From: Candidatus Levyibacteriota bacterium
Lineage (GTDB): Bacteria > Patescibacteriota > Microgenomatia > Levybacterales > UBA12049
DNA length: 64,000 bases
Reading direction: 5' to 3'
NCBI GenBank assembly: GCA_016182235.1
Contig: JACOXT010000003.1
Location: 258,209 to 322,208 of the forward strand
Positions 3,411 through 37,873 of this stretch are shown here, in pieces. The notes beneath the pieces are model-generated. The model had not been told where the DNA came from, did not search any database, and saw nothing but the letters and a program-made list of their open reading frames with translations. The position numbers and the translations under genes were made by a program. Numbering within the stretch: position 1 is the stretch's first letter; each line of letters opens with the position of its first letter.

Positions 3411-5040
3411 AATGAATAGTACAAAGACTCTTAATATTTCACTAAATAATTCTTCTTTTGCAAAAAAGATATCTCAATTTTGGGCAAGATACCATGTGTC
3501 TATCATTATAACCCTCCTTATTATCGCGTCGGTATTTGCTTTTGGTGTTTATTATTTGAATGGGTTAGGGTTGTCTTATAATGATGCTCGTTCGCATCTT
3601 GATATCGGACGGCGCGTTGTTGAAGGGTTAAAACCTGGGCTTGCTCAGCTTGGTTCAGTATGGCTTCCTCTTCCCCATATCCTAATGGTTCCAACGATTT
3701 GGAATGATTTTTTCTGGCACTCGGGCCTTTCAGGAGCAATTCAGTCTATGGTTTCTTTTGTCACAACAGCGGTAATAATCTATATGTTCCTGAAAAAAAT
3801 TGGGGTTTCAATATTTGGCAGGATTATTGGAGTTTTAATTTTTACTCTCAATCTCAATATTTTATACCTTCAGTCAACTGCAATGACAGAACTTCTTCTT
3901 ATCGCGACAATGACTACAGGAGTTTACTATCTTATGCTTTGGTCGAAAGATGAAAGAATATTAGATCTTATAAAATCAGCTTTTTTTGTTATGCTTTCGA
4001 CGCTTGTTCGATATGACGGATGGTTTTTACTTATACTCTCAATTATTCTCATCGCGATAGAAGTTTTGAGGAAAAAAGGGTATAAGGTGACTGAGGGAAC
4101 AGTTATTTTATTTGCAACACTTGCAGGATTCGGTGTTGCACTGTGGTTTTTATGGAATCTTTTGATCTTTAAAGACGCACTGTACTTTATTTACGGGCCT
4201 TATTCTGCCCGCGCGCAACAGCTTCAGCTTGAAGAAGCAGGAGTATTAGCAACCAAAGGTGATATTTTCTTCTCAACAAAAGTTTATCTTTACGCGCTTT
4301 TATACAGCTCAAACGCTTTCATTACGATTTTAGGATCTATCGGAGCGGTTATTTTCTGGCTGGACAAAAAAATAAAAACATCGATCAAGATTGTATCAAC
4401 CGCTCTTTTTGCTCCTCTTGCTTTTAACATTTTAGCTCTATATTTGGGCCACTCAGTTTTATTCGTCCAAGGGTTATCAGGCGACACATGGTTTAATGTC
4501 CGATACGGAGTAATGATGATGCCCCCAATTGCCATATTTGTTGGTTATCTTACGCATAAAGCAACATCATTGAAGTATGTTTTGGTGGGTCTTATTACTT
4601 TTGTTTTATTCTTTTCTTTTGTAAATCTTGACGCGGTTACAATTGACGACGCAAGAGTTGGATCAAGTCAGAAAAATGTTTCGGAGGTAAGTAATTGGTT
4701 AAAAAACAATGCTGACAAAGATGGATTTATTCTTATTTCCGCTGCCTCGCATGATGCTATAATATTTTCTTCAGGTTTTCCCATGAGTAAATTTATCCAT
4801 GAAGGTACGGGAGCCTATTGGGAAAGCGCAACAATCTCTCCTGACCGTTGGGCGCGCTGGATTGTCATGAGGACAAATGACGTAAACGATTCAACATTTA
4901 AACTTGTAAGCGAAAGCAAAGCGTATGAGTTAGGTCGATACACTCTTGTTAATCATTATCCATTCGCGGATATATATGAAATTAAGCCGGAGTTTGTTGA
5001 GAACCTAAACACTGAGTTTTCAATTAGAATAAGCAAATAA
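3403..5040 (+). CDS. polytopic membrane protein, GT-C fold (ArnT/PMT-like) glycosyltransferase candidate
   Basis: 545 aa and multi-TM, with an acidic first loop (SYNDARSHLDIGRR) and a C-terminal soluble domain. It overlaps the upstream gene by 8 nt. Confidence 0.45.
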   Translation: MNKMNSTKTLNISLNNSSFAKKISQFWARYHVSIIITLLIIASVFAFGVYYLNGLGLSYNDARSHLDIGRRVVEGLKPGLAQLGSVWLPLPHILMVPTIWNDFFWHSGLSGAIQSMVSFVTTAVIIYMFLKKIGVSIFGRIIGVLIFTLNLNILYLQSTAMTELLLIATMTTGVYYLMLWSKDERILDLIKSAFFVMLSTLVRYDGWFLLILSIILIAIEVLRKKGYKVTEGTVILFATLAGFGVALWFLWNLLIFKDALYFIYGPYSARAQQLQLEEAGVLATKGDIFFSTKVYLYALLYSSNAFITILGSIGAVIFWLDKKIKTSIKIVSTALFAPLAFNILALYLGHSVLFVQGLSGDTWFNVRYGVMMMPPIAIFVGYLTHKATSLKYVLVGLITFVLFFSFVNLDAVTIDDARVGSSQKNVSEVSNWLKNNADKDGFILISAASHDAIIFSSGFPMSKFIHEGTGAYWESATISPDRWARWIVMRTNDVNDSTFKLVSESKAYELGRYTLVNHYPFADIYEIKPEFVENLNTEFSIRISK

Positions 5041-10991: not shown

Positions 10992-12023
10992 ATGGATAAA
11001 TCTAGAAAAAGAATACTTGTTACGGGTGGTGCTGGGTTTATAGGCAGCAATTTTATTCTTTATTGGTTGAAGAAGTATCCTAATGACAAGATTATAAATC
11101 TTGATAGTTTAACTTATGCCGGGAATTTGGAGAATTTAAGGTTAATTGAGAGAAACCTCAATTATTCATTTGTCAAGGGAAATATCTGTGATTTAGATAT
11201 TGTTGAAAAGTCAATGCAGGGTGTAGATACAGTTGTACATTTTGCTGCGGAGAGTCATGTGGATCGGTCAATAAAAAAGCCCTCAGATTTTATATTAACA
11301 AATGTTGTTGGTACGCAAATATTACTTGATGCGGCTTTAAGAAATGACGTTAAGAGATTCCACCACATTTCTACAGATGAGGTTTATGGGAGCCTTGAAT
11401 TACGCGATACGAATAAATTTAATGAACGAACAAATTATAATCCCAGAAGTCCATATTCAGCAAGCAAAGCAGGATCAGATCATTTAGTAAAGGCATATTA
11501 TGAAACTTATGGTTTGCCAATCACCATTAGCAATTGCTCCAACAACTTCGGACCATATCAATTTCCAGAAAAGATGATTCCTCTTGCGATAACAAATGTA
11601 ATCGAGGATAAAAAAGTTCCAGTTTACGGAGATGGTCTTTATGTCAGAGATTGGCTTTATGTAGAGGATCACTGTCGAGCGATAGATTTAATATTGCAAA
11701 AAGGAAAAGTTGGAGAGACTTATTGTATTGGCGGTTTAACAGATGACATTAACAACCTAACTGTGGCTCGTAAAATACTTAAAATTCTTGGTAAGGATGA
11801 AAACATGCTTGAATTTGTAAAAGATCGTCCAGGGCACGATAGGAAATATGCTATTGATTGGTCAAAGATAAAGAGTGAGCTTGGATGGGGCCCGTTACAT
11901 AGTTTCGACGAGTGGCTTGAGAAAACTGTTGAATGGTACAGAAATAATGAGAGATGGTGGAAGAGATTAAAGACTAAAGAATTCCAAAAATACTACGAAG
12001 AGCTGTACGGGGACTTGGATTAA
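10992..12023 (+). CDS. rfbB: dTDP-glucose 4,6-dehydratase
   Basis: GGAGFIGSNF Rossmann motif, the YSASK catalytic motif, and RmlB-like sequence over the full length. Confidence 0.85.
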   Translation: MDKSRKRILVTGGAGFIGSNFILYWLKKYPNDKIINLDSLTYAGNLENLRLIERNLNYSFVKGNICDLDIVEKSMQGVDTVVHFAAESHVDRSIKKPSDFILTNVVGTQILLDAALRNDVKRFHHISTDEVYGSLELRDTNKFNERTNYNPRSPYSASKAGSDHLVKAYYETYGLPITISNCSNNFGPYQFPEKMIPLAITNVIEDKKVPVYGDGLYVRDWLYVEDHCRAIDLILQKGKVGETYCIGGLTDDINNLTVARKILKILGKDENMLEFVKDRPGHDRKYAIDWSKIKSELGWGPLHSFDEWLEKTVEWYRNNERWWKRLKTKEFQKYYEELYGDLD

Positions 12024-12054
12024 GTAAGAGAATTTGTAAATTTTCTAAGTGCAA

Positions 12055-12606
12055 TTATTTATTAGGTTTATCCAGAGCATTCTGAGGACGAATAATTTCG
12101 TTAAGAAATCTAAAAGTTTTAGGGGTTCTTCTTTGAGTGATGGTTTGTGATTGAAACTTTGCTCTAGGGAAGAAATCGTAATGCCGTATCGTTAAAATCT
12201 CTACTCCTTCTTTTGTGGTAATGCTGTTTTGGGTACTTCTTCCTTCAAAGAAAAGTTGATCACTAATACTTTGGAATCCCTTATATCTACTTTTGCATAC
12301 GAAAATATAACCTGGTTCATAACCATACATTCCTGCATCATCTGTCAGATCAACGTTAATTTTTGGGCAGTAGATAATTCGTTGTAAAACCTCTGGTGTA
12401 AAAAATTTCCTAAGCTCTTCTTCAGATGGCTCATGCTCTCTGTTTAGCTCAGTGCGGATCTTGTCGTCGCTTGGATAGCCATTTGGTATTTTTAGAAAAG
12501 GTATATCATACTCTTCAATTTCAGGAAGAGGGGAATCAAGATCATTTTTAGGTTGGAATTTCTCTATATCTTTACCTTCGTCGCTGTTCATAAATGTTAT
12601 TAACAT
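12055..12606 (-). CDS. hypothetical protein (orphan; not recognised)
   Basis: 183-aa ORF convergent with rfbB. A TTGACT-N17-TATTAT promoter abuts the first ATG, so the second ATG (12591) may be the true start. Confidence 0.5.
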   Translation of the reverse strand: MLITFMNSDEGKDIEKFQPKNDLDSPLPEIEEYDIPFLKIPNGYPSDDKIRTELNREHEPSEEELRKFFTPEVLQRIIYCPKINVDLTDDAGMYGYEPGYIFVCKSRYKGFQSISDQLFFEGRSTQNSITTKEGVEILTIRHYDFFPRAKFQSQTITQRRTPKTFRFLNEIIRPQNALDKPNK

Positions 12607-12808
12607 AATATTAAATTAATTTTAAATAGTCAATGGTAAATTGTCGTACGACCCCCTGGGGTCGAGTCTCGATAAACATCCAAAACCAAGAGATGATTTA
12701 ATTTCCTTAATGACATGACAACTTTGAGGAAGGCGAAATTACTACAGCACTTGTAAAGGGAATTTTATAAATTGAAAAACTCATTATGTTTTCAGAATCC
12801 GACCGTTT

Positions 12809-12840
12809 AATAGTTCAATAGTTTAAACTATTGAACTATT
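12809..12840. promoter_or_regulatory. perfect 32-bp palindrome of four AATAGTT heptads (operator candidate 1)
   Basis: AATAGTTCAATAGTTTAAACTATTGAACTATT equals its own reverse complement. Related copies lie at 13863 and 14362. Confidence 0.6.
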
Positions 12841-12982
12841 GTTTATATCGTGCGGCGACCCCGCGGGTTGAGCCTAGTTTTTCACTATCACCGTACTACA
12901 GTGCGTGGTAGTTATACAGATAGAATTACCATTTAACTTATTGGTTGATATTATGTACATGTGTAACAGGGGTTTATGAAGC

Positions 12983-13405
12983 TTATTTATAGTTCTCAAG
13001 CATAACTACTGTGCCATCGGTTATCTTACCATGTGCTTTGGCATCGGCGCTAATTAGTTTGGCATACTCGTCTTTTGCTGTTGCTACAAACAGTGCATCA
13101 TACGCGGCAATATTATAGGCTTCCATAATTTCTATTGTTTGATCTAATATTGCTTGAGATGATTCTTTTATGACTAGAGGCAAAGAAAAAAGATCACTTA
13201 TGCTTTTCTTTATTGCTTCAGCCGGCATGTGCTTACCCTTTTTGAGGGTGTTGATAATCTCAATTATGATAAGACTTGGAACAATCAAAAGGATTACGTT
13301 ACCCAACATGTCTTTGTAAATTTCATGAGCAATCTCAACACTTGATTCATTTTCTTGATTAAACCATTTAAGAACTACAGAGGTATCTACGACGTAAGTT
13401 TCCAT
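12983..13405 (-). CDS. vapC: PIN-domain toxin VapC
   Basis: N-terminal VVDTSV, plus the conserved acidic residues (IIEI, AYDALF, SAD) of PIN nucleases. It sits 3 nt downstream of an AbrB-type antitoxin gene. Confidence 0.8.
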   Translation of the reverse strand: METYVVDTSVVLKWFNQENESSVEIAHEIYKDMLGNVILLIVPSLIIIEIINTLKKGKHMPAEAIKKSISDLFSLPLVIKESSQAILDQTIEIMEAYNIAAYDALFVATAKDEYAKLISADAKAHGKITDGTVVMLENYK

Positions 13406-13408
13406 AGT

Positions 13409-13705
13409 TTAGAAATGAGTATCTCTATCGTGGCGTAAGAATTTAGTCAAATTGACACCTTGCTTGCCTAACTTGCTAATCCGTTTCATATCTTCCCATA
13501 TTCTTTCGCCCTCTTCCTTCGTCAACTTTTTTTTGGGATGTTGAGGGTGGGAAATAGGCACACGTTCCACTCTAAACCCAGAGGGTGTAGTCTCAATTTT
13601 TACTGTTAATTCTTCATCATGCCAATTTAAAGCCTCCCTTATTTCATTAGGAACTGTTAACTGACCCCTTTCTCTTACTCTAGTAATTTTCTGTATGTAA
13701 TTCAT
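13409..13705 (-). CDS. vapB: SpoVT/AbrB-type antitoxin VapB
   Basis: RGQLTVPNEIREAL swapped-hairpin motif. I chose the ATG at 13705 because TTGACA-N17-TATTCT-N7 precedes it. The track start at 13741 is a TTG inside the -35 hexamer. Confidence 0.7.
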   Translation of the reverse strand: MNYIQKITRVRERGQLTVPNEIREALNWHDEELTVKIETTPSGFRVERVPISHPQHPKKKLTKEEGERIWEDMKRISKLGKQGVNLTKFLRHDRDTHF

Positions 13706-13712
13706 ATAAATC

Positions 13713-13741
13713 AGAATATCAGAATAATCGTATTGTGTCAA
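13713..13741 (-). promoter_or_regulatory. promoter of vapBC (TTGACA-N17-TATTCT), 7 nt before the ATG
   Basis: The hexamers were read on the minus strand. The geometry implies a leaderless or near-leaderless transcript. Confidence 0.45.
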
Positions 13742-13862
13742 TATGGCAAAGTATGTATAATTGTGTTAATGAAGATTTTGGGGACGGCGGAGCTACCACA
13801 ATATCTGTAAAAGGATTTTTGTAACTCAAAAAACTCACTTCATATTCAAAATCCAGTCGTAT

Positions 13863-13890
13863 AATAGTTCAATAGTTTAAACTATTGAAC
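13863..13890. promoter_or_regulatory. heptad palindrome copy 2 (24-bp perfect core GTTCAATAGTTTAAACTATTGAAC)
   Basis: AATAGTTCAATAGTTTAAACTATTGAAC. It lies 7 nt beyond the stop of the YerC/TrpR-like gene. Confidence 0.55.
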
Positions 13891-13897
13891 CAAAGCA

Positions 13898-14356
13898 TTA
13901 AAACTTTTCTCTAATAATTTTTCTTTTAACTAATTCTTTTCCTTTTTTGCTTTTATTTTCAAAAGCTATACTTCCAAAACGTTTTGGCGGAGATAATTTG
14001 ATTAATATTTCTTCTACCTTATCGACTAGCGCTTCTTTGTTTTGTGCTTTTAATATGCTATCGACGACTTTTCTATAGCCGCTTTTTCCGTTTTTTAGCC
14101 AAAAAGAAACGCGCATAATCGTTGCGCGAGAAACTTTTAGCGTATCGTCAATCTCATCGTAAGTTTTCCCCTTAGCTAATAACACTGCTATTGCCAGCCT
14201 TTTTATAAGCATAATTTTTTCTGTAGGGGAAAGCAGATCATCTATAAAGTTCTTAGCCTCACCAGGTGTTCTAATATCTACGATTGTTTTTAAAAAAACC
14301 TGAAAAATTCTGTTTTCTAATTCTTTATCAAGGAATCTTCTGGAGACTTTTGTCAT
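13898..14356 (-). CDS. YerC/YecD (TrpR-like) helix-turn-helix DNA-binding protein
   Basis: Pattern LLSPTEKIMLIKRLAIAVLLAKGKTYDEIDDTLKVSRATIMRV, typical of TrpR-like YerC proteins. The gene is bracketed by the heptad palindromes. Confidence 0.7.
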   Translation of the reverse strand: MTKVSRRFLDKELENRIFQVFLKTIVDIRTPGEAKNFIDDLLSPTEKIMLIKRLAIAVLLAKGKTYDEIDDTLKVSRATIMRVSFWLKNGKSGYRKVVDSILKAQNKEALVDKVEEILIKLSPPKRFGSIAFENKSKKGKELVKRKIIREKF

Positions 14357-14361
14357 GTTGT

Positions 14362-14393
14362 TATAGTTTAATAGTTTAAACTATTAAACTATA
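14362..14393. promoter_or_regulatory. perfect 32-bp heptad palindrome (operator candidate 3) overlapping the regulator's own promoter
   Basis: TATAGTTTAATAGTTTAAACTATTAAACTATA. On the minus strand, TTGACG (14401-14396) -N17- TAAACT (14378-14373) places the -10 at the palindrome centre. The palindrome ends 5 nt before the ATG. Confidence 0.6.
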
Positions 14394-14466
14394 TGCGTCA
14401 AGATCAAGATCTAGGATTAAGTTACAAAATTTAATAAAAGATTTCTATAGATGATATAATCATTGA

Positions 14467-15345
14467 ATGAAGATTTTGGGGATGGGGTTGAGGGGGCTTG
14501 TGGGATCAAGAATTGTTGAGCGACTTCAAGATAAGTATGAATTTGAATCTTCAGGCGTTGATATAACCAATAAAGACGCAAGTGCTCAAATAAAAGATTC
14601 TAATGCCGCTATAGTCCTTCATTTAGCCGCAAAGACAGATGTGGATGGGTGCGAAAAGGATAAGCCCTTAGGTAGTGAAGGAGAAGCTTGGAGGGTTAAT
14701 GTAGAAGGAACAAGAAATATTGCCGATGCGTGTAGAGAGACTAATAAAAAGTTAATCTATTTTTCAACTGATTTTGTATTTGATGGAACCAAGGACTTTT
14801 ATGTTGAAGATGATACTCCAAACCCGGTAAATTGGTATGCACGGACGAAATATGAAGGAGAAAAAATTGTTCAGAGTCTATCAACGTCTTGGTTAATAAT
14901 TAGAATTGCCTATCCTTATAGAGCAAATTTTAAAAAATTAGATTTCTTCAGAGCAATTCTGAAACGATTACAAAAGGGCGAAAAGGTAAATGCGGTTACC
15001 GATCATATTTTCACGCCAACTTTTATTGATGATATTGTAGTCGCCTTGGACAATTTAATTGAAAATAACTCAACTGGAATTTTTCATGTTGTTGGTAGCC
15101 AAGCTTTGACTCCATTTGAGGTTGCCTCTATTATTTGTAAAACTTTTGGTTACGATCAAAGTCTTATCGTAAGAACTACAAGGTCGGAATTTTTTAAGAA
15201 TAGAGCAACTAGGTCTTTTCAACTACACCTTAGAAATGATAAAATAGCAAGATTAGGTGTAAAAATGAAGACTTTTGAAGAGGGAATTAAGGAGATAAAA
15301 AGACAGATGGAAAATTCGGAATTCAAAATTACAAATACTAAATAA
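14467..15345 (+). CDS. dTDP-4-dehydrorhamnose reductase-like (RmlD family) NAD(P)-dependent reductase
   Basis: 292 aa with RmlD-like organisation (LHLAAKTDVDGCE, YARTKYEGE). TATAAT lies 6 nt upstream of the ATG. Confidence 0.65.
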   Translation: MKILGMGLRGLVGSRIVERLQDKYEFESSGVDITNKDASAQIKDSNAAIVLHLAAKTDVDGCEKDKPLGSEGEAWRVNVEGTRNIADACRETNKKLIYFSTDFVFDGTKDFYVEDDTPNPVNWYARTKYEGEKIVQSLSTSWLIIRIAYPYRANFKKLDFFRAILKRLQKGEKVNAVTDHIFTPTFIDDIVVALDNLIENNSTGIFHVVGSQALTPFEVASIICKTFGYDQSLIVRTTRSEFFKNRATRSFQLHLRNDKIARLGVKMKTFEEGIKEIKRQMENSEFKITNTK

Positions 15346-28723: not shown

Positions 28724-30012
28724 AAAAGAATCCACGATTCCAACTCTTCTTTATTATAATTTTGGCTATCCTAGCTATTTTTGTTAATATCCCGGTTGAG
28801 GGAATTTTCCCTTTTATGAAAAATTTATCTTTCAAAAAAGGCTTGGATCTTGCGGGAGGAACTAGTCTTACGTATAGAGGAGACATGAAGGATGTGGAAG
28901 AAAACCAGAGAGAAAAAGCACTTGATGGAGCAAGGGTCGTGATTGAGCGGAGGATAAATCTTTTTGGGGTTTCAGAGCCGATTATCCAGACTGCGGTAAC
29001 AAATAATGATTACAGGATTATCGTAGAATTGCCAGGAGTTGATATTGATCAAGCAAAAAAAATAATTGGAACTACAGCAGAGCTTTCTTTTTGGGAACAG
29101 GGAGCAAGTATTAGTGCCAAAATAGCAACTCAATCCGCGTATCCTTTGGGGGTTCCAGAGGTCTTGGGAAATAATCCAAAAAAAACTAACTTAACTGGGA
29201 AAGACCTGAAGGAAACTAGCGTTACGTTTGATCCAAATACAGGCAAACCGCAAGTTCAATTAACTTTTACTGATAGCGGAGCAAAAAAATTTGCTGAGAT
29301 AACTGAGAGAAATGTAAATAAAATCGTAGCTATAGTTTTGGATAATGTGGTGATTGAGGCTCCTAGCGTTAACCAGCCAATACTGGGAGGCGATGCGGTT
29401 ATCTCAGGGAGCTTTGATTCTGAGTCCGCGAATGCTTTAAGTACAGCCCTTAATGCAGGTGCTTTGCCTCTGCCTCTTATTCCGCTACAGCAACATGCAG
29501 TTGACGCAACTTTGGGAAACACTTCTCTTTCCAAGAGTTTAATTGCCGGGATTTTGGGGATAGTAATAATAGTTGTTTTTATGGTATTTTTGTATGGAAG
29601 ACTTGGAATTGCCGCTAGCATTGCGCTTATCCTTTACGCTTTATTTGTTCTATCAATTTTTCGACTTAGTAGTCTTACCCCATATGGTATAACCCTTACT
29701 CTTTCTGGTATTGCGGGTTTTATTTTGTCCATTGGAATGGCAGTTGATGCAAATATCTTGATCTTTGAAAGAACAAAAGAGGAACTTCGTCTTGGGAGAA
29801 GTAAAGAAAATGCAATGAGCCTTGGTTTTTCAAGAGCATGGACGTCTATCAGAGATTCAAATATTGCAACTCTTATCACATGTTTTATCTTATATAGTTT
29901 TGGGAATGGGATGGTAAAGGGATTTGCTTTAGTTTTGGCAATTGGAGTTTTGGTGTCAATGTTTTCAGCAATTGTCGTAACAAGAACTTTGTTGAGAGTA
30001 ATTTATCGTTAA
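28720..30012 (+). CDS. secD: protein translocase subunit SecD
   Basis: GLDLAGGTSL, RINLFGVSEP and C-terminal 6-TM SecD/F domain motifs. Followed by secF. Confidence 0.9.
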   Translation: MKKNPRFQLFFIIILAILAIFVNIPVEGIFPFMKNLSFKKGLDLAGGTSLTYRGDMKDVEENQREKALDGARVVIERRINLFGVSEPIIQTAVTNNDYRIIVELPGVDIDQAKKIIGTTAELSFWEQGASISAKIATQSAYPLGVPEVLGNNPKKTNLTGKDLKETSVTFDPNTGKPQVQLTFTDSGAKKFAEITERNVNKIVAIVLDNVVIEAPSVNQPILGGDAVISGSFDSESANALSTALNAGALPLPLIPLQQHAVDATLGNTSLSKSLIAGILGIVIIVVFMVFLYGRLGIAASIALILYALFVLSIFRLSSLTPYGITLTLSGIAGFILSIGMAVDANILIFERTKEELRLGRSKENAMSLGFSRAWTSIRDSNIATLITCFILYSFGNGMVKGFALVLAIGVLVSMFSAIVVTRTLLRVIYR

Positions 30013-30017
30013 GGGTT

Positions 30018-30923
30018 ATGGATATTATTGGTAAGAAAAATTATTATTTTGTTTTGTCACTGGTTATTCTTATTCCAGGACTGGTCGCTCTTATTTTGTG
30101 GGGGCTTAATCTTTCTATTGACTTTACGGGTGGTTCAAGACTTACTCTTGCTTTTAAAGATGAGGTTAGCGAAAAAACAATACAAGGCGTACGTAAAAAT
30201 TTAGAATCTCAAAATATTGAAACATATGTACTAGAAAAATCTGATAACTTGATTTTTGTCCGTACAAGTCCAATAAGCGAAGATCAAGATAATAAACTTA
30301 TTTCCAGCTTGACAAAAAGTTTAAAAGATATACAACAAAAGGAATTCGAAACGATAGGCCCTACAATTGGCAAGGAAACTACACTAAACGCTCTTAAGGC
30401 TGTAGTTATAGCTTCCATACTTATTGTCTTTTATATAGCCTGGTCTTTTAGACATGTTCCAAAACCTGCAAGTAGTATTAGGTTTGGGGTTTGTGCGATT
30501 GTTGCATTAATTCATGACGCATTGGTTGTGGTTGGCATTTTTGCAATACTGGGACACTTTTTTGGAGTTGAAATAGATTCTCTTTTCGTAACAGCAATCC
30601 TTACGATTATAGGATTTTCTGTTCATGATACTATAGTCGTTTTCGATAGAATAAGAGAAAATCTTCGAAAAATGTCTGATTTAACATTTTCTGAGGTTGT
30701 AAATAAGTCAATTATAGAGACTTTAGTTCGTTCACTTAACACCTCTTTAACTGTTGTTCTTGTTCTTGTTTCGTTACTCCTTTTTGGAGGGGAAAGTATT
30801 CGGTGGTTTGTAGTCGCACTTTTAATAGGAATCATTAGCGGCACTTATTCATCTATTTTCAATGCCTCACCTTTTTTAGTCCTTTGGCACGAATTAAGAA
30901 GTAAGAAAAAAAATAAGATTTAA
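30018..30923 (+). CDS. secF: protein translocase subunit SecF
   Basis: GLNLSIDFTGGS, HDTIVVFDRIREN; 301 aa. Confidence 0.9.
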   Translation: MDIIGKKNYYFVLSLVILIPGLVALILWGLNLSIDFTGGSRLTLAFKDEVSEKTIQGVRKNLESQNIETYVLEKSDNLIFVRTSPISEDQDNKLISSLTKSLKDIQQKEFETIGPTIGKETTLNALKAVVIASILIVFYIAWSFRHVPKPASSIRFGVCAIVALIHDALVVVGIFAILGHFFGVEIDSLFVTAILTIIGFSVHDTIVVFDRIRENLRKMSDLTFSEVVNKSIIETLVRSLNTSLTVVLVLVSLLLFGGESIRWFVVALLIGIISGTYSSIFNASPFLVLWHELRSKKKNKI

Positions 30924-31369
30924 GACAGTTCTTCTTTAACAATCTTACTTACCAACCCTCCATCTGCTTTTCCTTTAATCTTGGCCATTAAAATTCCCAT
31001 TACTTTCCCCATGTCTTTGACGCTTGTAGCATTTGTTTCAATAAGCGCATCTTTTACCAATTTTCTAATTCCATCTTCATTCATCTGCTTCGGTAAGTAT
31101 TGTTGCAAAATTTGAAGTTCTTTTGTTTCTTTCTCAACCAGCTCAGGACGATTTGCATTTTTGAATTGCTCAATTGAATCCCTATGCTGTTTTGCCTCTT
31201 TTTGAATAACTGTTAATATATCTTCATCTGTTGCCTCATATCCCGCTCCGCCCTTCTGAATTTCATAATACGTAACTCCCGAAATGAGCATTCGAAGTAC
31301 GGAAGTTTTTAGTACATCTTTTGCCAACATTGATTGCTTGAGTTCTTCTTGAAATTTTTGTTTTAACAT
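30920..31369 (-). CDS. GatB/YqeY domain protein
   Basis: Full-length YqeY pattern (LKTSVLRML...IQKEAKQHRDSIEQF...LQQYLP...GKADGGLVSKIVKEEL). Confidence 0.8.
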   Translation of the reverse strand: MLKQKFQEELKQSMLAKDVLKTSVLRMLISGVTYYEIQKGGAGYEATDEDILTVIQKEAKQHRDSIEQFKNANRPELVEKETKELQILQQYLPKQMNEDGIRKLVKDALIETNATSVKDMGKVMGILMAKIKGKADGGLVSKIVKEELS

Positions 31370-31375
31370 AATTTA

Positions 31376-31840
31376 TTACCTGTATATAATAATCATTCTT
31401 CTTATTATTATGTCATCTTTTGATTTCAAAAAATCACCAGAAAAATCAAACCAAACTCTTTTGAAAGTCTGTCTATCTATAGTTCTTAATCCACCCAATT
31501 CTGGATCCTGCAAATAAACATTTTCTTTGTCAAGATCAACAACTACAGAATAATGTCCATCGTCTGTAGAAAACCAGTCTACTATTACAGGAATATTTTT
31601 ATTAAGGATATAAAGTTCAAGGTCTTTTATATCGGAGAAATCCTTAACTATGCCTCTAAACCCTAACTCTTTTGCTGCTTTCAGCAACCCTTTTGAATCA
31701 ACGCCAGAATGAGTTGTTGCGCCGGCTAGGTCAGCCAACTCTTTTTCACTTCTTTTGGTACCAAAATAATCAAGAACCATTTTCAAAGAAGCAGGTCCAC
31801 AAAGCCCAGATGATTGTCTAAAAGGTTTTACATTTAGCAT
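31376..31840 (-). CDS. stand-alone papain-like cysteine peptidase (C39-like domain)
   Basis: Internal ATG chosen (MLNVKPFRQSSGLCGPASLKMVLDYFG; Cys in GLCGPAS, later HYSVVVD). This start lies 1 nt after the stop of the ABC permease gene. Confidence 0.6.
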   Translation of the reverse strand: MLNVKPFRQSSGLCGPASLKMVLDYFGTKRSEKELADLAGATTHSGVDSKGLLKAAKELGFRGIVKDFSDIKDLELYILNKNIPVIVDWFSTDDGHYSVVVDLDKENVYLQDPELGGLRTIDRQTFKRVWFDFSGDFLKSKDDIIIRRMIIIYR

Positions 31841-31841
31841 A

Positions 31842-32627
31842 TTATCCTTCCATTCTAGCAAATTGCCCTGTATCTTTGGATTTGCTAAACATGATATTAA
31901 AAAACCAGAGGGAAAGCAGAAAGTAGAAAATGTTCCATCCAAACGCGATTCCAATATTAAGAAAGTCGATAGATGGATTTGTAAGGCTTTCTCTTGCTGC
32001 TTCAAAAACATAAGTAGCAGGAAGTAAATATGCTATTGTCTGAAGAGAATTGGGAAGGACGCTAACTGGAAAAAACATAGCGGTTAAGGGTTGAAAAATA
32101 AAAATGCTTCCCCATGCAAAAGCTTGGATTCTCGTACCATATCTAAATATTAGCCCAAGAATGAAAATTCCAACAGACCAAGCAAAAATAGTAAGGTTGA
32201 TAAAGAAAAAGGATAAATTTAAGATACCCATGCTAAAGACGTTAAATTGAAAAACAAGTAACGAAATAATTGCTACGAACATAAAAATTAAAAGCGCTTT
32301 TATTACTCCAGCCATCATCTCAGCTACGATATACTCTCTTAGCGATAAAGGGGTAATGAACATATTGCTTAGATTCTTAGACCATACATTCCAAAGGCTG
32401 CCAACAGACATAGAATATTGTGTAACTCTAATTATTTCCCAAAGGAGCATTCCCAATAGCAGGTAGCGGCCGGCTTGAGGATTATCCTTTGACAAAAAGA
32501 TAAATACGAATCCAAATACAACTATGTTTATTACTGAAAAATAAAAAAGATCTATAATTACCTCCAGAGAGCGTTTGGTAATATACAATTCCTGAAGAAG
32601 TATTGCTTTAATTATTTGAATTGACAT
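31842..32627 (-). CDS. ABC-2 type transporter permease
   Basis: Six TM segments. I chose the ATG at 32627, which is preceded by AAGGAAAG. It overlaps the end of the ATPase gene. Confidence 0.7.
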   Translation of the reverse strand: MSIQIIKAILLQELYITKRSLEVIIDLFYFSVINIVVFGFVFIFLSKDNPQAGRYLLLGMLLWEIIRVTQYSMSVGSLWNVWSKNLSNMFITPLSLREYIVAEMMAGVIKALLIFMFVAIISLLVFQFNVFSMGILNLSFFFINLTIFAWSVGIFILGLIFRYGTRIQAFAWGSIFIFQPLTAMFFPVSVLPNSLQTIAYLLPATYVFEAARESLTNPSIDFLNIGIAFGWNIFYFLLSLWFFNIMFSKSKDTGQFARMEG

Positions 32628-33546
32628 ATTTATCTTTCCTTGCCATTTGCAGAAAGAAGTCTTCAAGCGTTGGCTTCTTTACTTCAATATCGGTAATCCA
32701 TATCCCACTCTCACCAAGTCCAAAAATAATCTTTGGGATAAATCTCTCTTCAGTACTGATTATTACTAGATTATTATCTGTAAGAGCATACTTTTGATTG
32801 TGGTCTTTCAAATATTTTTTAACAGTATTCTTGTCACCGTCAAATATTAATCTTAGCTGAGTTCTTGATATGCGTTTAGTAAGACCAAGAGGGGAATCTT
32901 CCGCAACGATTCTACCATGATCTAAAAAGATTACCCTATCGCAAACTCTGGTAATCTCGTCCATATTATGGCTTGTGTACAATAAAGATATATTTCTTGA
33001 TTTTTTAAGCATCTCAATTAACGAAAGTGTTTTATCTGCAATATCTGGATCTAAGCTGGCGGTGGGTTCGTCCATGAGGATAATCTCCGGATCATTAATA
33101 AGAGCCTTAATAAGGTTGACTCGGGTTTTTTGCCCTGCAGATAAGTCCCAGTAACGAGTTGAGAGCATATCGGTAATTTCAAAATACTCGACAAAATCCA
33201 TTATTTTTTTTCTTGGATTTTTTACTCTATAAAGATTGGCAAAGACCAGTAAGTTTTCCCAAATAGAGATCCTACCCTGGAGAGTATTAAACGCTGATGC
33301 AAAGTTAACTCTTTGTAGGCAATATCGTCGATTGCTGTATAAATCTTTACCAAAATATTTAATAGTGCCATTAGTAGTCTGAGTAATGCCAAGAAGCATA
33401 TGGATTGTGGTTGTTTTTCCTGCGCCATTTGGTCCAAGAAGGCCTAATACTTCTCCTTTTTTCAAAGAAAAAGAAATATCATGAACTGCAGTGAAATCTT
33501 TAAATTTTTTGGTAAGGTTTCTCACTTCTAAAATCGAATTATCCAT
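32608..33546 (-). CDS. ABC transporter ATP-binding protein
   Basis: Walker A GPNGAGKTT, signature LSAGQKTR, Walker B ILMDEPT. Confidence 0.9.
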   Translation of the reverse strand: MDNSILEVRNLTKKFKDFTAVHDISFSLKKGEVLGLLGPNGAGKTTTIHMLLGITQTTNGTIKYFGKDLYSNRRYCLQRVNFASAFNTLQGRISIWENLLVFANLYRVKNPRKKIMDFVEYFEITDMLSTRYWDLSAGQKTRVNLIKALINDPEIILMDEPTASLDPDIADKTLSLIEMLKKSRNISLLYTSHNMDEITRVCDRVIFLDHGRIVAEDSPLGLTKRISRTQLRLIFDGDKNTVKKYLKDHNQKYALTDNNLVIISTEERFIPKIIFGLGESGIWITDIEVKKPTLEDFFLQMARKDKYVNSNN

Positions 33547-33607
33547 AGCTTCTTAGATTGTATCATCTTTAAGGATTTAATTTAAACGGAAGATTTGGAG
33601 AAGTAAA

Positions 33608-33631
33608 TTATCGTTGACTAGACGACGATAA
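33608..33631. promoter_or_regulatory. 24-nt quasi-palindrome TTATCGTTGACTAGACGACGATAA (site A of the second YerC-like gene)
   Basis: 20 of 24 positions are self-complementary. It lies 11 nt past the stop of the YerC-like gene, upstream of the ABC operon. Confidence 0.5.
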
Positions 33632-33642
33632 ATTGTCTAACA

Positions 33643-34053
33643 TTATCTTTTTATATCAGTTCTTTTAATACCGGTATATTCTCTTTTTTTGAATACAAGC
33701 TGGGATCCTCCGATTGAACGATACTTTTTCTCTTTATATTCTTTTTCCACTTTTTTACCTCGTTTTTCAATAAGTTCAAATGCAATAGGACGATTGTCGA
33801 GTTGTCTCATTACCGAAAAAATTGTGTTTTTTCCTACTTTGAGTTCTTTTACAATCTCCTCTATATGTATTCCTGATTTAATATATTCGGCTATAATTAT
33901 TCTTCTTCCGATCTTCATTTTTTCATCATGAGTTAAGAGACCGTTTATAATTTCATCTACTTCATTTCCATCTTTTGCAGCAAGGAATACATCTCGCAGT
34001 CTATTGAAGGCTTCATATATAAGCTCTTTCGTCAGAAATTTGTACCTTCTCAT
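33643..34053 (-). CDS. YerC/YecD (TrpR-like) DNA-binding protein, second paralogue
   Basis: LLTHDEKMKIGRRIIIAEYIKSGIHIEEIVKELKVGKNTIFSV, the same pattern as the 13898..14356 product. Confidence 0.7.
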   Translation of the reverse strand: MRRYKFLTKELIYEAFNRLRDVFLAAKDGNEVDEIINGLLTHDEKMKIGRRIIIAEYIKSGIHIEEIVKELKVGKNTIFSVMRQLDNRPIAFELIEKRGKKVEKEYKEKKYRSIGGSQLVFKKREYTGIKRTDIKR

Positions 34054-34058
34054 ACTGA

Positions 34059-34082
34059 GTATCGTTGTCTAGTCAACAAAAT
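34059..34082. promoter_or_regulatory. site B, related to site A (shares TATCGTTG-n-CTAG; core GTCTAGTCAAC is the reverse complement of GTTGACTAGAC in site A)
   Basis: It starts 5-6 nt upstream of the regulator's ATG, the same placement as palindrome 14362-14393 at the first paralogue. Confidence 0.5.
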
Positions 34083-34152
34083 AAAAATAAAATCTAAAAC
34101 GAAAACATTGTTGTTATAGTAACTTTTATTTTTTAATGTATTGAATCTTATA

Positions 34153-35529
34153 TTATCTGAGACTTTTGATTCTTGTTAGCAAATATTCTCGATTATTTTT
34201 TGATAAATCTTCATCGACCTCTTCGAAAAGTTTTTGGAGAATCTCACCAACCTTTGGACTTGGTTTAATATTCAGTTCTCCCATAATATCATTACCGTCA
34301 ATTGCTAAGTCATTGATAGAAAAAGGCAAAGGCTTGAGTTGGTCTTCAATCCGTTTTTTAAAAAGCTTTAGTCTCCAGCTTTCAGCGGTTTGCGTCCCTC
34401 CTCCCAGCCGATCACCGATTCGAAGATCCATCATGTCTTTTACATTTTCCACTCCAACTCTTCGAATAAATCTTCGGATAGCTGCATCTGTTATTTTTTC
34501 ATCAACTGTAAACATATGCCAACGAATAAGATTGACTGTTTTATCTCGGTCCTGCCTAGAGAATTTTAATCTTTCGCAAATAGCTTTTGCAATTCGTGAT
34601 CCTGCGATTTCGTGATTATGAAAAATAACAAATCCTTGTTCGTCAAATCCTCGGACTTTTGGCTTTCCAACATCGTGAAGAAGTGTTGCGAATCGGACAA
34701 CTGGATCTTCTGAGGGGCAAAATCTTAATGATAAAAGATTGTGGGTAAACACATCGTCCACATGATGTCGGCCAGGCCTTGCCTGAGAAATACCGATGCC
34801 TTCAATGATCTCTGGGAGAATAAAAGTTAAAAGACCTGCGTTTTTTAAGAGCATAACGCCTTCATATGGACTGCCGCTCGCCAAAATTCTAAGTAGCTCA
34901 ATACGTATCCTTTCTCCTGAGATATTGGTAATAAGTTTTGCGTCTGAAATTATTTCTTGCCAGGTTTTTTCCTCAATCGTAAAAGAATGATCGGTTGCGA
35001 TTCGAACAGCCCGCATAAGCCGAAGCGCGTCTTCCTTAAACCGTATTTTTGGATCTCCGACAGCACGAACTATTTTTAGTTTGATATCGTTTTGGCCGTT
35101 GTAGGGATCAATTATTTCAAAGTTTTGGGGTTTACCCTGAGCAAATGAAGGGAGTTGAAGGGCTATTGCATTTATGGTAAAATCGCGGCGGGCGAGGTCT
35201 TCTTCAATTGACTTTCCCCACCGAACAGAATCTGGTCTTCTTCTATCGCTGTAACCCTTTTCAGTCCTGAACGTAGTTATTTCTACGACCATTTTCTTAT
35301 TTCCAACTTCTATTGGGATTCCAACTGTTCCAAATTTATTATCGTAAAAACCATCAAGAAAAAGTTCTAAGATTTGTTCAGGCGTTGCATTTGTAGTCAT
35401 ATCCCAGTCCTTTACTGGTTTTTTAAGAAGTAAATTGCGGACGCATCCTCCAACTAAATATACGTCAAAACCAGCGTTTACAAATTTTTTATAAACAGCA
35501 ATAATTTCTTCTGGAATATGCTTAGTCAT
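34153..35529 (-). CDS. cca: CCA-adding enzyme (tRNA nucleotidyltransferase with HD domain)
   Basis: GGCVRNLLL and DWD in the N-terminal PolyA_pol head; HD domain (LLHDVGKP). Confidence 0.85.
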   Translation of the reverse strand: MTKHIPEEIIAVYKKFVNAGFDVYLVGGCVRNLLLKKPVKDWDMTTNATPEQILELFLDGFYDNKFGTVGIPIEVGNKKMVVEITTFRTEKGYSDRRRPDSVRWGKSIEEDLARRDFTINAIALQLPSFAQGKPQNFEIIDPYNGQNDIKLKIVRAVGDPKIRFKEDALRLMRAVRIATDHSFTIEEKTWQEIISDAKLITNISGERIRIELLRILASGSPYEGVMLLKNAGLLTFILPEIIEGIGISQARPGRHHVDDVFTHNLLSLRFCPSEDPVVRFATLLHDVGKPKVRGFDEQGFVIFHNHEIAGSRIAKAICERLKFSRQDRDKTVNLIRWHMFTVDEKITDAAIRRFIRRVGVENVKDMMDLRIGDRLGGGTQTAESWRLKLFKKRIEDQLKPLPFSINDLAIDGNDIMGELNIKPSPKVGEILQKLFEEVDEDLSKNNREYLLTRIKSLR

Positions 35530-35558
35530 CCTGTTATAGTATAGCAGAAGTATGAAGT

Positions 35559-37681: not shown

Positions 37682-37747
37682 ATTGACTAATAAGATACAG
37701 TTTTTTAAAAAGTCTAGCTTGACGTTTGTCTGACAAAAAGATGACAT

Positions 37748-37767
37748 CTTGTAATCTAGATTACAAG
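37748..37767. promoter_or_regulatory. perfect 20-bp palindrome CTTGTAATCTAGATTACAAG followed by ATTTTT
   Basis: It lies in the divergent region between the orphan gene and aspS. It could be an operator or a plus-strand terminator-like hairpin. Confidence 0.35.
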
Positions 37768-37873
37768 ATTTTTCGAAATGACTTAAAGATTGCTTCGTTA
37801 CGCCAAGTCAGACTACGCTCGCAATGACAGCTTGGACTTGCTATGGTCAACATAAATGATTAAAATATGAATT

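What the first reader, a model, noticed from the sequence alone, without database searches (positions are those of the whole stretch)
12809..14393. Three 32-bp four-heptad palindromes link a YerC/TrpR-like regulator, a VapBC module and an orphan gene
Seen:
- There are two perfect 32-bp palindromes: AATAGTTCAATAGTTTAAACTATTGAACTATT (12809-12840) and TATAGTTTAATAGTTTAAACTATTAAACTATA (14362-14393).
- There is also a 28-nt copy (13863-13890) with a 24-bp perfect core.
- Each is made of four (A/T)ATAGTT heptads arranged > > < <.
- One ends 5 nt before the ATG of the 152-aa YerC/TrpR-like gene. Its centre supplies the -10 hexamer (TAAACT, 17 nt after TTGACG) of that gene.
- The second lies 7 nt past the same gene's stop, upstream of vapBC.
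- The third lies between vapC and the unrecognised 183-aa ORF.
- All three transcription units are on the minus strand.

Established: TrpR binds operators as tandem dimers on repeated half-sites.

Inference: this is a compact autoregulated unit in which a TrpR-like protein recognises a private heptad operator and couples a toxin-antitoxin pair to an unknown protein.

Alternatives: the palindromes are hairpin terminators, or the termini of a small mobile cassette.
Basis: partly seen in the sequence, partly recalled or inferred. Interest (0 to 1): 0.7.

Follow-up and report, generated by a model that had tools for sequence, protein, structure and literature searches.

The report
TrpR-like repressor bracketed by its operators
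The three palindromes are most likely the binding sites of the small TrpR-like DNA-binding protein encoded between two of them, and in a whole group of uncultured bacteria the same protein family has its gene flanked at both ends by a matching palindrome that can also lie inside essential genes.

Summary
There are three near-identical palindromes in 64 kb, none is expected by chance, and no other site rises above noise. The source is a Candidatus Levybacteria genome.

In 29 orthologous loci from Microgenomates, the 152-aa TrpR/HisR-fold gene has a palindrome between a TTGACA -35 box and its ATG. A second copy lies 0-30 nt after its stop codon. The palindrome sequence changes with the lineage and with the recognition helix. 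So 14362-14393 is the autoregulatory operator, and 13863-13890 is the family's universal 3' site, not a vapBC operator.

The copy at 12809-12840 belongs to a 122-nt repeat that came with the vapBC cassette. That cassette sits in a slot between rmlB and rmlD that differs in every relative. One relative lacks both the regulator and vapBC there.

Unexpectedly, 36 of 51 metagenome hits to the palindrome have no regulator gene nearby. Several lie in frame inside miaA, cysS, fmt, pgk and rsmI. There they are conserved at synonymous positions and change symmetrically.

Protein binding and the role of the 3' and intragenic sites are inferred, not shown. I rate it a new variant of a known kind.

The parts
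14362..14393 (.). 5' operator of the TrpR-like gene. It is a perfect 32-nt palindrome made of four 8-bp units, and it covers the -10 box and the likely transcription start.
   Evidence: 39.1 bits. Its position between the -35 box and the ATG is conserved in orthologues.
14373..14401 (-). Promoter-like site of the TrpR-like gene: TTGACG (14401-14396), a 17-nt spacer, then TAAACT (14378-14373). The ATG lies about 17 nt after the -10 box, so the mRNA is nearly leaderless.
   Evidence: A TTGACA box is conserved just upstream of the palindrome in L003-L011.
13898..14356 (-). 152-aa TrpR/HisR-fold protein. It has a conserved N-terminal arm (MTKVSRR) and a C-terminal extension of about 50 aa, basic and helical.
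   Evidence: PF01371 at 58 bits and TIGR02531 at 42.6 bits. AlphaFold2 pLDDT is 82.9, and Foldseek matches 3KOR, 3FRW, 3G1C and TrpR over about 92 residues. 983 clusters at 50% identity match at E<=1e-10.
13863..13890 (.). 3' operator copy, 7 nt after the stop codon of the TrpR-like gene. This is the family's universal second site.
   Evidence: 43.2 bits. A matching site lies 0-30 nt after the stop in nearly all orthologues, and 23 of 29 loci share a significant 5'/3' segment.
13769..13890 (+). Copy 2 of the 122-nt direct repeat. It consists of a remnant of the rmlD promoter and start (13768-13787), a 75-nt spacer and the palindrome.
13409..13705 (-). VapB-like antitoxin (AbrB/MazE-type, 98 aa from the ATG at 13705). 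A good promoter match, TTGACA-17-TATTCT, lies at 13741-13713.
12983..13405 (-). VapC PIN-domain toxin.
   Evidence: PF01850 at 54 bits.
12849..12876 (.). GC-rich hairpin motif (hpB) between vapC and the palindrome. It matches 25 of 27 nt of the motif that lies upstream of ORF183 in the relative L089.
12809..12840 (.). Third palindrome, a perfect 32-mer. It is the end of copy 1 of the 122-nt repeat and lies between vapC and ORF183.
   Evidence: 43.5 bits.
12715..12836 (+). Copy 1 of the 122-nt direct repeat. Its left end (12715-12735) is a diverged remnant of the rmlD start.
12645..12674 (.). GC-rich hairpin motif (hpA) upstream of ORF183. It is homologous to the motif in L089.
12055..12606 (-). 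ORF183, of unknown function. A promoter match, TTGACT-17-TATTAT, lies at 12633-12605. An 83% identical homologue sits in the same rmlB-rmlD slot in L089 without the regulator or any palindrome.
14466..14485 (+). True start of rmlD (gene 14467-15345). This is the sequence duplicated at 13768-13787 and, in diverged form, at 12715-12735.
10992..12023 (+). rmlB (dTDP-glucose 4,6-dehydratase), the left border of the variable slot.

Best explanation
The palindromes are the cognate DNA sites of the 152-aa TrpR/HisR-fold protein encoded at 13898-14356. This protein belongs to a large, undescribed subfamily found in Microgenomates (candidate phyla radiation).

The family's standard unit is operator, gene, operator.
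- The upstream site (14362-14393) overlaps the -10 box and the start of a nearly leaderless transcript. A bound protein would shut off its own promoter.
- The downstream site (13863-13890) abuts the stop codon. I infer that it cooperates with the upstream site, with two dimers bridged through the extra C-terminal helices to form a loop of about 500 bp. It may also block RNA polymerase from running out of or into the gene.

Each site is four 8-bp units. That spacing matches the 8-bp half-site spacing reported for E. coli TrpR, so two or more dimers probably bind side by side.

The third site (12809-12840) is a duplicate that came with the vapBC cassette. Relative to a genome with an empty slot, the window carries two tandem units. 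Each is a 75-nt spacer, a palindrome, a cargo and a copy of the rmlD start. One cargo is vapBC and the other is the regulator. At most, the two downstream sites insulate the three co-directional transcription units from read-through. They are not promoter operators of vapBC or ORF183.

In related genomes the protein appears to have a few further sites, some inside housekeeping genes.

Shown here: the sequence architecture, its conservation, the co-variation, and the insertion structure. Inferred: binding, repression, looping and roadblock.
For: **Protein**
- It matches the TrpR family and adopts the TrpR fold.

**5' site**
- In the Levy/Curtiss-type orthologues the palindrome lies between a TTGACA-like box and the ATG. 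The window has TTGACG, 17 nt, then TAAACT.

**3' site**
- 23 of 29 loci share a 16-31-nt segment between the 60 nt before the start and the 70 nt after the stop, a match that no more than 1 of 100 shuffles reaches.
- 19 of 29 have a strong palindrome right after the stop.
- 15 metagenome loci show the same arrangement.

**Private specificity**
- The recognition helix and the palindrome change together. KVSR(A/P)TIM goes with TAGTT..AACTA, KVGLETVNKVN with ATGTTCTAGAACAT, KVSTSTVLFYS with ATCGATTAATCGAT, and KVSTATILFYA with TATCAATAGATTGATA.
- A second paralogue in L016 has its own different palindrome.
- The arms of the palindrome co-vary: 37 cells change on both sides against 15.3 +/- 2.9 in shuffles, and 0 of 500 shuffles reach 37.

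**8-bp units**
- Seen. The half-site with an 8-bp spacing reported for TrpR is described in PMC9413887. A tandem-binding crystal structure, 1TRR, is listed.

**Sites restricted to this locus**
- Only these three sites occur in the window.

**Third copy as a duplication**
- The 122-nt repeat.
- The alignment to the empty-slot relative L089.
- The slot content differs in L002, L032, L034, L036, L077 and L088.

**Sites elsewhere are under selection**
- Third-codon identity is 37/44 inside the palindrome against 143/312 in the flanks (p = 1.4e-6).
- The miaA site exists in symmetric variants. One of them is identical to the 3' operator of the L007 orthologue.
Against: - No binding experiment exists.
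- A symmetric dimer and a hairpin both predict co-varying arms, so one search does not separate protein binding from nucleic-acid structure.
- The 3' site's role is a guess. No oligomerisation data exist, and the C-terminal helices are modelled with only moderate confidence (pLDDT 64-78).
- Some loci (L003, L023, L027, L028) lack a clear proximal 5' copy.
- In the window the -10 box (TAAACT) is a mediocre match (9 of 12).
- Direct repeats of neighbouring gene ends around the unit hint at mobility, which simple regulation does not explain.
- Sites inside coding regions are unusual for a plain repressor.
Confidence: 0.7

Rival explanations
1. The regulator gene with its palindromes is, or recently was, a small integrative or exchangeable module of about 700-850 bp. 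The palindromes are handling or recombination landmarks. Cassettes such as vapBC enter next to them by recombination through short portable homologies. This does not exclude operator function.
For: **Direct repeats of a neighbouring gene's end flank the unit in three unrelated contexts.**
- rmlD start: window 13768-87 and 14466-85; L002 4651-71 and 5496-5516; also L036 and L077.
- glmS 3' end in L010: 27 nt, with 4 of 4 differences synonymous.
- acs 3' end in L021, L025 and L020: 88 nt in L021, with 8 of 8 differences synonymous.

**Empty site.** L089/L090 has the same rmlD-ORF183-rmlB context without the unit.

**Variable slot.** Its content differs in every relative.

**Toxin-antitoxin neighbours.** Intergenic orphan palindromes often sit next to such genes: PIN three times, HicB and MqsA.
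Against: - No recombinase is encoded in the unit, and the protein has only a DNA-binding fold.
- The gene is single-copy per locus set and 60-88% conserved with stable synteny in the Levybacteria clade, which looks vertical.
- The repeats that bound the unit are the gene ends, not the palindromes.
- No flanking repeats were found in most loci.
- There are no hits in viral contigs.
- A terminal-inverted-repeat relation of the two flanks is not significant.
Confidence: 0.25
2. The palindromes act as nucleic-acid hairpins: transcription terminators, RNA stabilisers or cruciforms. They are not protein-binding sites.
For: - As RNA they fold stably, at -13.2 to -18.9 kcal/mol with z-scores of -4.8 to -7.2.
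- The arms co-vary.
- The 3' copy sits right after the stop codon.
- One copy is flagged as terminator-like on the plus strand.
Against: - No U tract follows any copy on the gene strand.
- The 5' copy overlaps the -10 box and so would not be fully transcribed.
- The same sequence lies in frame inside miaA, cysS, fmt, pgk and rsmI, where a terminator would be harmful.
- The sequence tracks the recognition helix of the adjacent protein.
- The 5' and 3' copies would have no reason to share a sequence.
Confidence: 0.08
3. The protein is a chromosome-marking factor rather than a gene-specific repressor, in the manner of parS/ParB, matS/MatP or Ter/Tus. A handful of high-affinity palindromes are scattered on the chromosome, some inside genes. 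One overlaps its own promoter, as TerB does for tus.
For: - 36 of 51 metagenome hits lack the regulator gene.
- Sites inside five housekeeping genes are conserved at synonymous positions and at orthologous codons in different species.
- Density is roughly one exact match per 100-350 kb of contig.
- The extra C-terminal helices could bridge dimers.
Against: - GC skew is positive across the whole window, so this locus is at neither the origin nor the terminus.
- Only about a fifth of Curtissbacteria MiaA sequences carry a palindrome-compatible peptide, so the sites are not universally kept.
- Many intergenic sites abut start codons like ordinary operators: tsaB at 3 nt, a HAD gene at 1 nt, a DUF72 gene at 7 nt, an ATP-grasp gene at 13 nt.
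- Whole-genome site maps were not available.
Confidence: 0.12
4. The palindrome is a REP-like selfish repeat, and the flanked gene is its mobilising protein, by analogy with REP and RAYT.
For: The gene is flanked by two copies, and further copies lie at unrelated loci.
Against: - Copy number is very low: 3 in 64 kb, all local.
- The protein is not an HUH/Y1 transposase.
- Intragenic copies replace existing codons without changing the length. They are not insertions.
Confidence: 0.04

Closest known systems
E. coli Trp repressor TrpR and its operators (trpR, trpEDCBA, aroH)
   Same: - The fold is the same (Foldseek TM-score about 0.75 over 92 residues).
- The operator is palindromic and overlaps the protein's own promoter, giving autoregulation.
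- Half-sites repeat every 8 bp, which allows tandem dimers (1TRR is listed).
- From my own knowledge, the half-site TAGTT resembles the CTAGTT of the trp operator.
   Different: - The protein is 152 aa rather than about 108 aa. It has a conserved N-terminal arm and two extra C-terminal helices.
- The operator is 24-32 bp, with 2 extra central bases.
- A second operator lies at the 3' end of the gene.
- The position aligned with TrpR Arg84, a DNA-contacting residue, is not conserved in the family (my reading).
- No amino-acid biosynthesis genes are linked to it.
HisR (B. subtilis YerC), the histidine repressor of Firmicutes (PMC9413887)
   Same: - It is the closest relative by sequence and structure (3G1C, 3FRW, 3KOR).
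- TIGR02531 scores just above its cut-off.
- The palindromic motifs are lineage-specific, and autoregulation is frequent.
   Different: - The HisR motif is cacTTTA-N6-TAAAgtg, a 20-bp site, and it is not found here.
- HisR is under 100 aa.
- Its regulon is his genes and histidine transporters. No site found here is next to a his gene.
Repression by looping between operators that flank a repressor gene (lambda CI at OL and OR) and by intragenic roadblock (CcpA/cre in Bacillus)
   Same: A regulator gene is enclosed by two copies of its site about 500 bp apart, and related sites lie inside coding regions. This comparison rests on my own knowledge and is an analogy only.
   Different: The protein family is unrelated. 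Neither looping nor roadblock has been shown here.
Omega repressor of the omega-epsilon-zeta three-component toxin-antitoxin system
   Same: A small repressor recognises arrays of short repeats in direct and inverted order and sits next to a toxin-antitoxin pair.
   Different: - Omega is a ribbon-helix-helix protein that binds 7-bp heptads.
- Here the units are 8 bp, the fold is TrpR, and the regulator is not linked to toxin-antitoxin genes in 28 of 29 other loci.
Tus/TerB and RTP/Ter (replication terminator proteins whose gene is preceded by one of their own sites)
   Same: A small DNA-binding protein has a long high-affinity site in its own promoter and a few more sites elsewhere, some intragenic. 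This rests on my own knowledge.
   Different: The sites here are symmetric, and the locus is in mid-replichore by GC skew. The folds are unrelated.

Membership tests
TrpR family (Pfam PF01371) | Sequence match above the curated threshold | tested here: met
   58.3 bits against a cut-off of 27, over residues 19-99.
TrpR family (Pfam PF01371) | TrpR fold: a helical bundle with a helix-turn-helix | tested here: met
   The AlphaFold2 core has pLDDT of about 90. Foldseek matches 3KOR, 3FRW, 3G1C and TrpR with target TM-scores of 0.72-0.85.
TrpR family (Pfam PF01371) | Palindromic operator overlapping a regulated promoter | tested here: met
   This holds at the sequence level only. The palindrome spans the -10 box and reaches the ATG, and the position is conserved in orthologues.
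TrpR family (Pfam PF01371) | Binding controlled by an amino-acid co-repressor | not testable with these tools
   No ligand data exist. The position aligned with TrpR Arg84 varies within the family.
HisR / YerC-YecD (TIGR02531) | Model score above the cut-off | tested here: inconclusive
   42.6 bits against a cut-off of 42.2. The match covers only residues 19-99 of 152.
HisR / YerC-YecD (TIGR02531) | Operator of the type cacTTTA-N6-TAAAgtg | tested here: not met
   The sites are GTTYAATAGTT-YR-AACTATTRAAC, against the published motif.
HisR / YerC-YecD (TIGR02531) | Regulon of histidine biosynthesis and transport genes | tested here: not met
   Sites lie at the protein's own gene, next to vapBC and ORF183, and in relatives in or near miaA, cysS, fmt, pgk, rsmI, gatB, tsaB, proS and toxin-antitoxin genes.
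Type II toxin-antitoxin VapBC | PIN-domain toxin preceded by a small DNA-binding antitoxin in one operon | tested here: met
   The PIN match is 54 bits. The AbrB/MazE match is weak, at 18-23 bits and below the cut-off. The genes are 3 nt apart, with a promoter match in front.
Three-component toxin-antitoxin system with a dedicated regulator (omega-epsilon-zeta type) | The regulator gene is conserved next to the toxin-antitoxin pair | tested here: not met
   Orthologues of the regulator are next to glmS, metG, rml genes, acs or proS. Only L025 has a VapB-like neighbour.
REP / RAYT | Many dispersed copies per genome and an HUH Y1 transposase | tested here: not met
   There are 3 copies in 64 kb, all local. 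Relatives carry about one exact match per 100-350 kb contig. There is no transposase domain.
Intrinsic terminator | GC-rich stem followed by a U tract on the transcribed strand | tested here: not met
   The stems are AT-rich with no U tract on the minus strand. The only consensus hit is on the plus strand at 12808-12841.
Integron cassette array (attC sites) | attC with RYYYAAC...GTTRRRY cores and an IntI integrase | tested here: not met
   By my reading, the palindromes do not fit the core consensus. No integrase was seen among the ORFs of 10.5-17 kb. The rest of the genome was not searched.
Known RNA families (Rfam 15) | A covariance-model match | tested here: not met
   No match at E<=1 in window 11900-14600, L088, or L002 4500-5700.

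The most novel reading that the evidence does not exclude
The TrpR-like protein and its palindrome form a self-contained site-and-reader system that goes beyond autoregulation. A few long palindromes are written into the chromosome, even into the codons of essential genes such as miaA, cysS, fmt, pgk and rsmI. They are kept symmetric by selection. That would be a new kind of genome-organising or cassette-exchange system in candidate phyla radiation bacteria.
Probability: 0.2. Interest if true: 0.85.

Novelty: new variant of a known kind. Interest (0 to 1): 0.65.

Why it matters
Almost nothing is known about gene regulation in candidate phyla radiation bacteria, which cannot be grown alone. This work pairs a very common small protein family (983 clusters at 50% identity) with a precise DNA site that differs between lineages. 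That pairing can be tested in vitro with a synthetic gene and oligonucleotides, with no culture needed.

Three features are unusual for a TrpR-type repressor.
- There is a second site at the 3' end of its own gene in nearly every genome.
- There are sites written into the codons of translation-related genes.
- There is a link to a cassette-swapping slot.

These features could reveal how such small genomes insulate or coordinate transcription. The work also warns against reading a neighbouring toxin-antitoxin pair as part of a regulator's unit on the evidence of one genome.

Tried and rejected
- **tRNA-fragment attachment sites.** ARAGORN finds tRNAs only at 46 kb and 56 kb.
- **Long terminal inverted repeats around the regulator unit.** The 75-nt and 73-nt flanks are not significantly similar in inverted orientation: 11 of 500 shuffles do as well.
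- **A structured RNA in the spacers.** Rfam finds nothing in the window, L088 or L002.
- **Replication origin or terminus.** There is no GC-skew switch near 12-15 kb.
- **Phage or defence origin.** There are 0 hits in viral contigs. PADLOC and PHROGs give nothing useful for ORF183, and only a weak small-terminase helix-turn-helix hit for the regulator.
- **A 22-aa 'small ORF' flanking the Roizmanbacteria genes.** It is in fact the duplicated 3' end of acetyl-CoA synthetase.
- **Insertion of the palindrome into host proteins.** MiaA and Fmt keep their length, so the sites arose by substitution (the comparison with the E. coli proteins was done by eye).
- **A homologue of the 75-nt spacer of the 122-nt repeat in other loci.** Only the rmlD-start part recurs.
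- **Literature on TrpR-like proteins in candidate phyla radiation bacteria.** Nothing was found.


Full report
**1. The observation**

A degenerate 32-mer finds only these three sites in 64 kb, with none expected by chance. A weight matrix built from 64 related sites scores them 39-43.5 bits, and the next best hit, at 5.6 bits, is at noise level. The distances to the start and stop codons and the TTGACG-17-TAAACT promoter match are correct.

Two points need correcting.
- The repeat unit is 8 bp, so four units make 32 bp. Only a 24-nt core, GTTYAATAGTT-YR-AACTATTRAAC, is conserved among relatives.
- The palindromes at 12809 and 13863 are the ends of a 122-nt direct repeat. The other end of that repeat copies the first 20 nt of rmlD.

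**2. The genes**

The window comes from a Candidatus Levybacteria genome; the exact protein is on a 600-kb contig. The 152-aa protein matches Pfam Trp_repressor and only just passes the YerC/YecD model. Its predicted core superposes on HisR-like structures and on E. coli TrpR. The N-terminal arm and the last two helices have no counterpart in those structures.

B. subtilis YerC is now known as HisR, a histidine repressor of under 100 aa with 20-bp operators of a different consensus. The family found here is large, with 983 clusters at 50% identity at E<=1e-10.

VapC is a PIN protein, and VapB is weakly AbrB/MazE-like. ORF183 matches no family in Pfam, NCBIfam, PADLOC or PHROGs.

**3. Comparative test of the operator idea**

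I fetched 30 orthologous loci from species-representative genomes of Levy-, Curtiss-, Gottesman- and Roizmanbacteria and others, at 28-78% identity.
- In the Levy/Curtiss-type loci a palindrome fills the space between a TTGACA-like box and the ATG. In the other lineages a lineage-specific palindrome lies close upstream of the start.
- In nearly all loci a second copy lies 0-30 nt after the stop codon, often including it.
- In 23 of 29 loci the 60 nt before the start and the 70 nt after the stop share a 16-31-nt segment that no more than 1 of 100 shuffles matches.
- The palindrome differs between lineages in step with the recognition helix.
- A second paralogue in L016 has its own distinct palindrome.

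The downstream neighbour varies: convergent glmS, co-directional metG, rmlB, and others. The 3' copy therefore belongs to the regulator's own unit.

It also shows that the site at 13863-13890 is not there for vapBC.

**4. What is special about this window**

Close relatives keep the order rmlA, NUDIX, rmlB, a slot, the regulator on the opposite strand, rmlD, then ugd. The slot holds a different gene in each genome:

| Locus | Slot content |
|---|---|
| L002 | ORF203 |
| L032 | ORF317 |
| L034 | a NUDIX gene |
| L036 | ORF256 |
| L077 | ORF264 |
| L088 | nothing |

A relative with an 83% identical ORF183 (L089/L090) has rmlD and ORF183 back to back. It has no regulator, no vapBC and no palindrome in 10 kb. 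Aligned to it, the window carries two tandem units between ORF183's upstream region and rmlD:
- 12734-13787, with vapBC as cargo;
- 13788-14485, with the regulator as cargo.

Each unit begins with a 75-nt spacer plus a palindrome and ends with a copy of the rmlD promoter and start.

The same rmlD-start remnant lies after the regulator in L002, L036 and L077. The third palindrome is thus best read as a duplicate that came with the vapBC cassette. Better promoter matches lie directly in front of vapB and ORF183, 120-170 nt downstream of the palindromes.

**5. Signs of exchange**

In two other contexts the regulator unit is also bracketed by a duplicated gene end.
- The last 27 nt of glmS in L010.
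- The last 88 nt of acetyl-CoA synthetase in L021, and similarly in L025 and L020.

All differences between the copies are synonymous: 4 of 4 in L010 and 8 of 8 in L021. This suggests that both copies come from functional genes, as happens after single-crossover integration of DNA from a relative.

No recombinase is present, and most loci show no such repeats. I therefore keep mobility as a rival or an add-on, not the main reading.

**6. Sites elsewhere**

A scan of metagenome contigs for the 24-nt core gave 51 loci.
- 15 loci carry the regulator with a site at both ends.
- 36 loci have no regulator nearby.
- Viral contigs gave none.

Some orphan sites lie in frame inside CysS, MiaA, Fmt, Pgk and RsmI genes, with gene identities confirmed by Pfam. 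Only one reading frame of the palindrome is free of stop codons. The window's variant, with a TTTAAA centre, has stops in all frames.

Between orthologous gene pairs from different species, third-codon identity is 37/44 inside the palindrome against 143/312 in the flanks (p = 1.4e-6). Identical codons among identical residues are 30/36 against 95/185 (p = 4e-4).

Among 120 Curtissbacteria MiaA proteins, about a fifth have a peptide at that spot that fits a palindrome. I examined the DNA of two of them.
- One carries a 28-nt palindrome identical to the 3' operator of the L007 regulator.
- The other carries a variant that has changed symmetrically.

Over 53 distinct sites the two arms co-vary more than any of 500 shuffles. 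Both a symmetric dimer and a hairpin would produce this result.

Intergenic orphan sites either abut start codons (HAD, DUF72, tsaB, an ATP-grasp gene) or lie next to toxin-antitoxin genes. Exact matches occur about once per 100-350 kb of contig. This is a small site set, not a REP-like repeat.

**7. Mechanism**

Most likely, dimers bind side by side on the four 8-bp units, as reported for TrpR half-sites with an 8-bp spacing. They would occlude the -10 box and the start of a nearly leaderless transcript.

The 3' site probably cooperates with the 5' site through the extra C-terminal helices, or blocks polymerase at the gene border. This is inference.

In the window the two downstream sites sit exactly at the borders between three co-directional units. 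They may therefore limit read-through. They are not promoter operators.

The terminator reading is weak:
- no U tract follows any copy on the gene strand;
- one site is in a promoter;
- related sites lie inside essential genes.

GC skew excludes an origin or terminus location.

**8. Verdict**

It is a new variant of a known kind: a TrpR-family repressor with an operator-gene-operator layout and intragenic sites. I found nothing about it in the literature available here. Interest is 0.65.

Noticed in passing
window 37744-37771: An unrelated 28-nt near-perfect palindrome, ACATCTTGTAATCTAGATTACAAGATTT. It is the only other long palindrome in the window.
   Followed up: no
L002 4720-4900: A GC-rich, hairpin-rich stretch of about 180 nt between rmlD and the regulator gene in a low-GC genome. 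It looks like a structured RNA, but Rfam finds nothing. It is absent from the window.
   Followed up: partly
window 12645-12674 and 12849-12876; L088 about 1625-1660; L089 about 4940-4965: A conserved GC-rich hairpin motif, (T/C)CGACCCC..GGGGTCG..CACGA, recurs at cassette borders in the rmlB-rmlD slot of several relatives. Its role is unknown; it could be a terminator or a recombination landmark.
   Followed up: partly
L021 4686-4773 and 5523-5610; also L025 and L020: The last 88 nt of acetyl-CoA synthetase, which encode the conserved SGKIMRR motif, are duplicated on the far side of the regulator unit. All 8 differences between the copies are synonymous.
   Followed up: partly
L016 9797-10156: A second, shorter paralogue of 109 aa lies 4.8 kb from the first. 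Its own different palindrome, TGACTTTAATGATTTAAATCATTAAAGTAA, starts right after its stop codon.
   Followed up: no
L093 2769-2788 and 3188-3207: Two identical 20-nt GC-only palindromes, CCTGCCTGCCGGCAGGCAGG, lie 420 nt apart and flank a diacylglycerol kinase gene in a Curtissbacteria contig.
   Followed up: no
L082, L087, L052, L078, L039 (metagenome loci): Orphan copies of the palindrome repeatedly lie 30-430 nt from toxin-antitoxin genes (PIN, HicB, MqsA-like, RelB-like). L081, L082, L086 and L087 share a conserved flank of about 70 nt next to the palindrome, even though the neighbouring genes differ.
   Followed up: partly
window 30000-36000 and 58000-64000: There are local dips of GC skew to about zero or below in an otherwise positive-skew window. 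These may be islands of opposite-strand or foreign genes.
   Followed up: no
L014 2-986: In a complete Gottesmanbacteria chromosome, an extra copy of that lineage's palindrome lies between the stop of a XerC/D-like recombinase gene and the ATG, 13 nt away, of an ATP-grasp (Ddl-like) gene. The gene names come from my reading of the end motifs and were not checked with Pfam.
   Followed up: no
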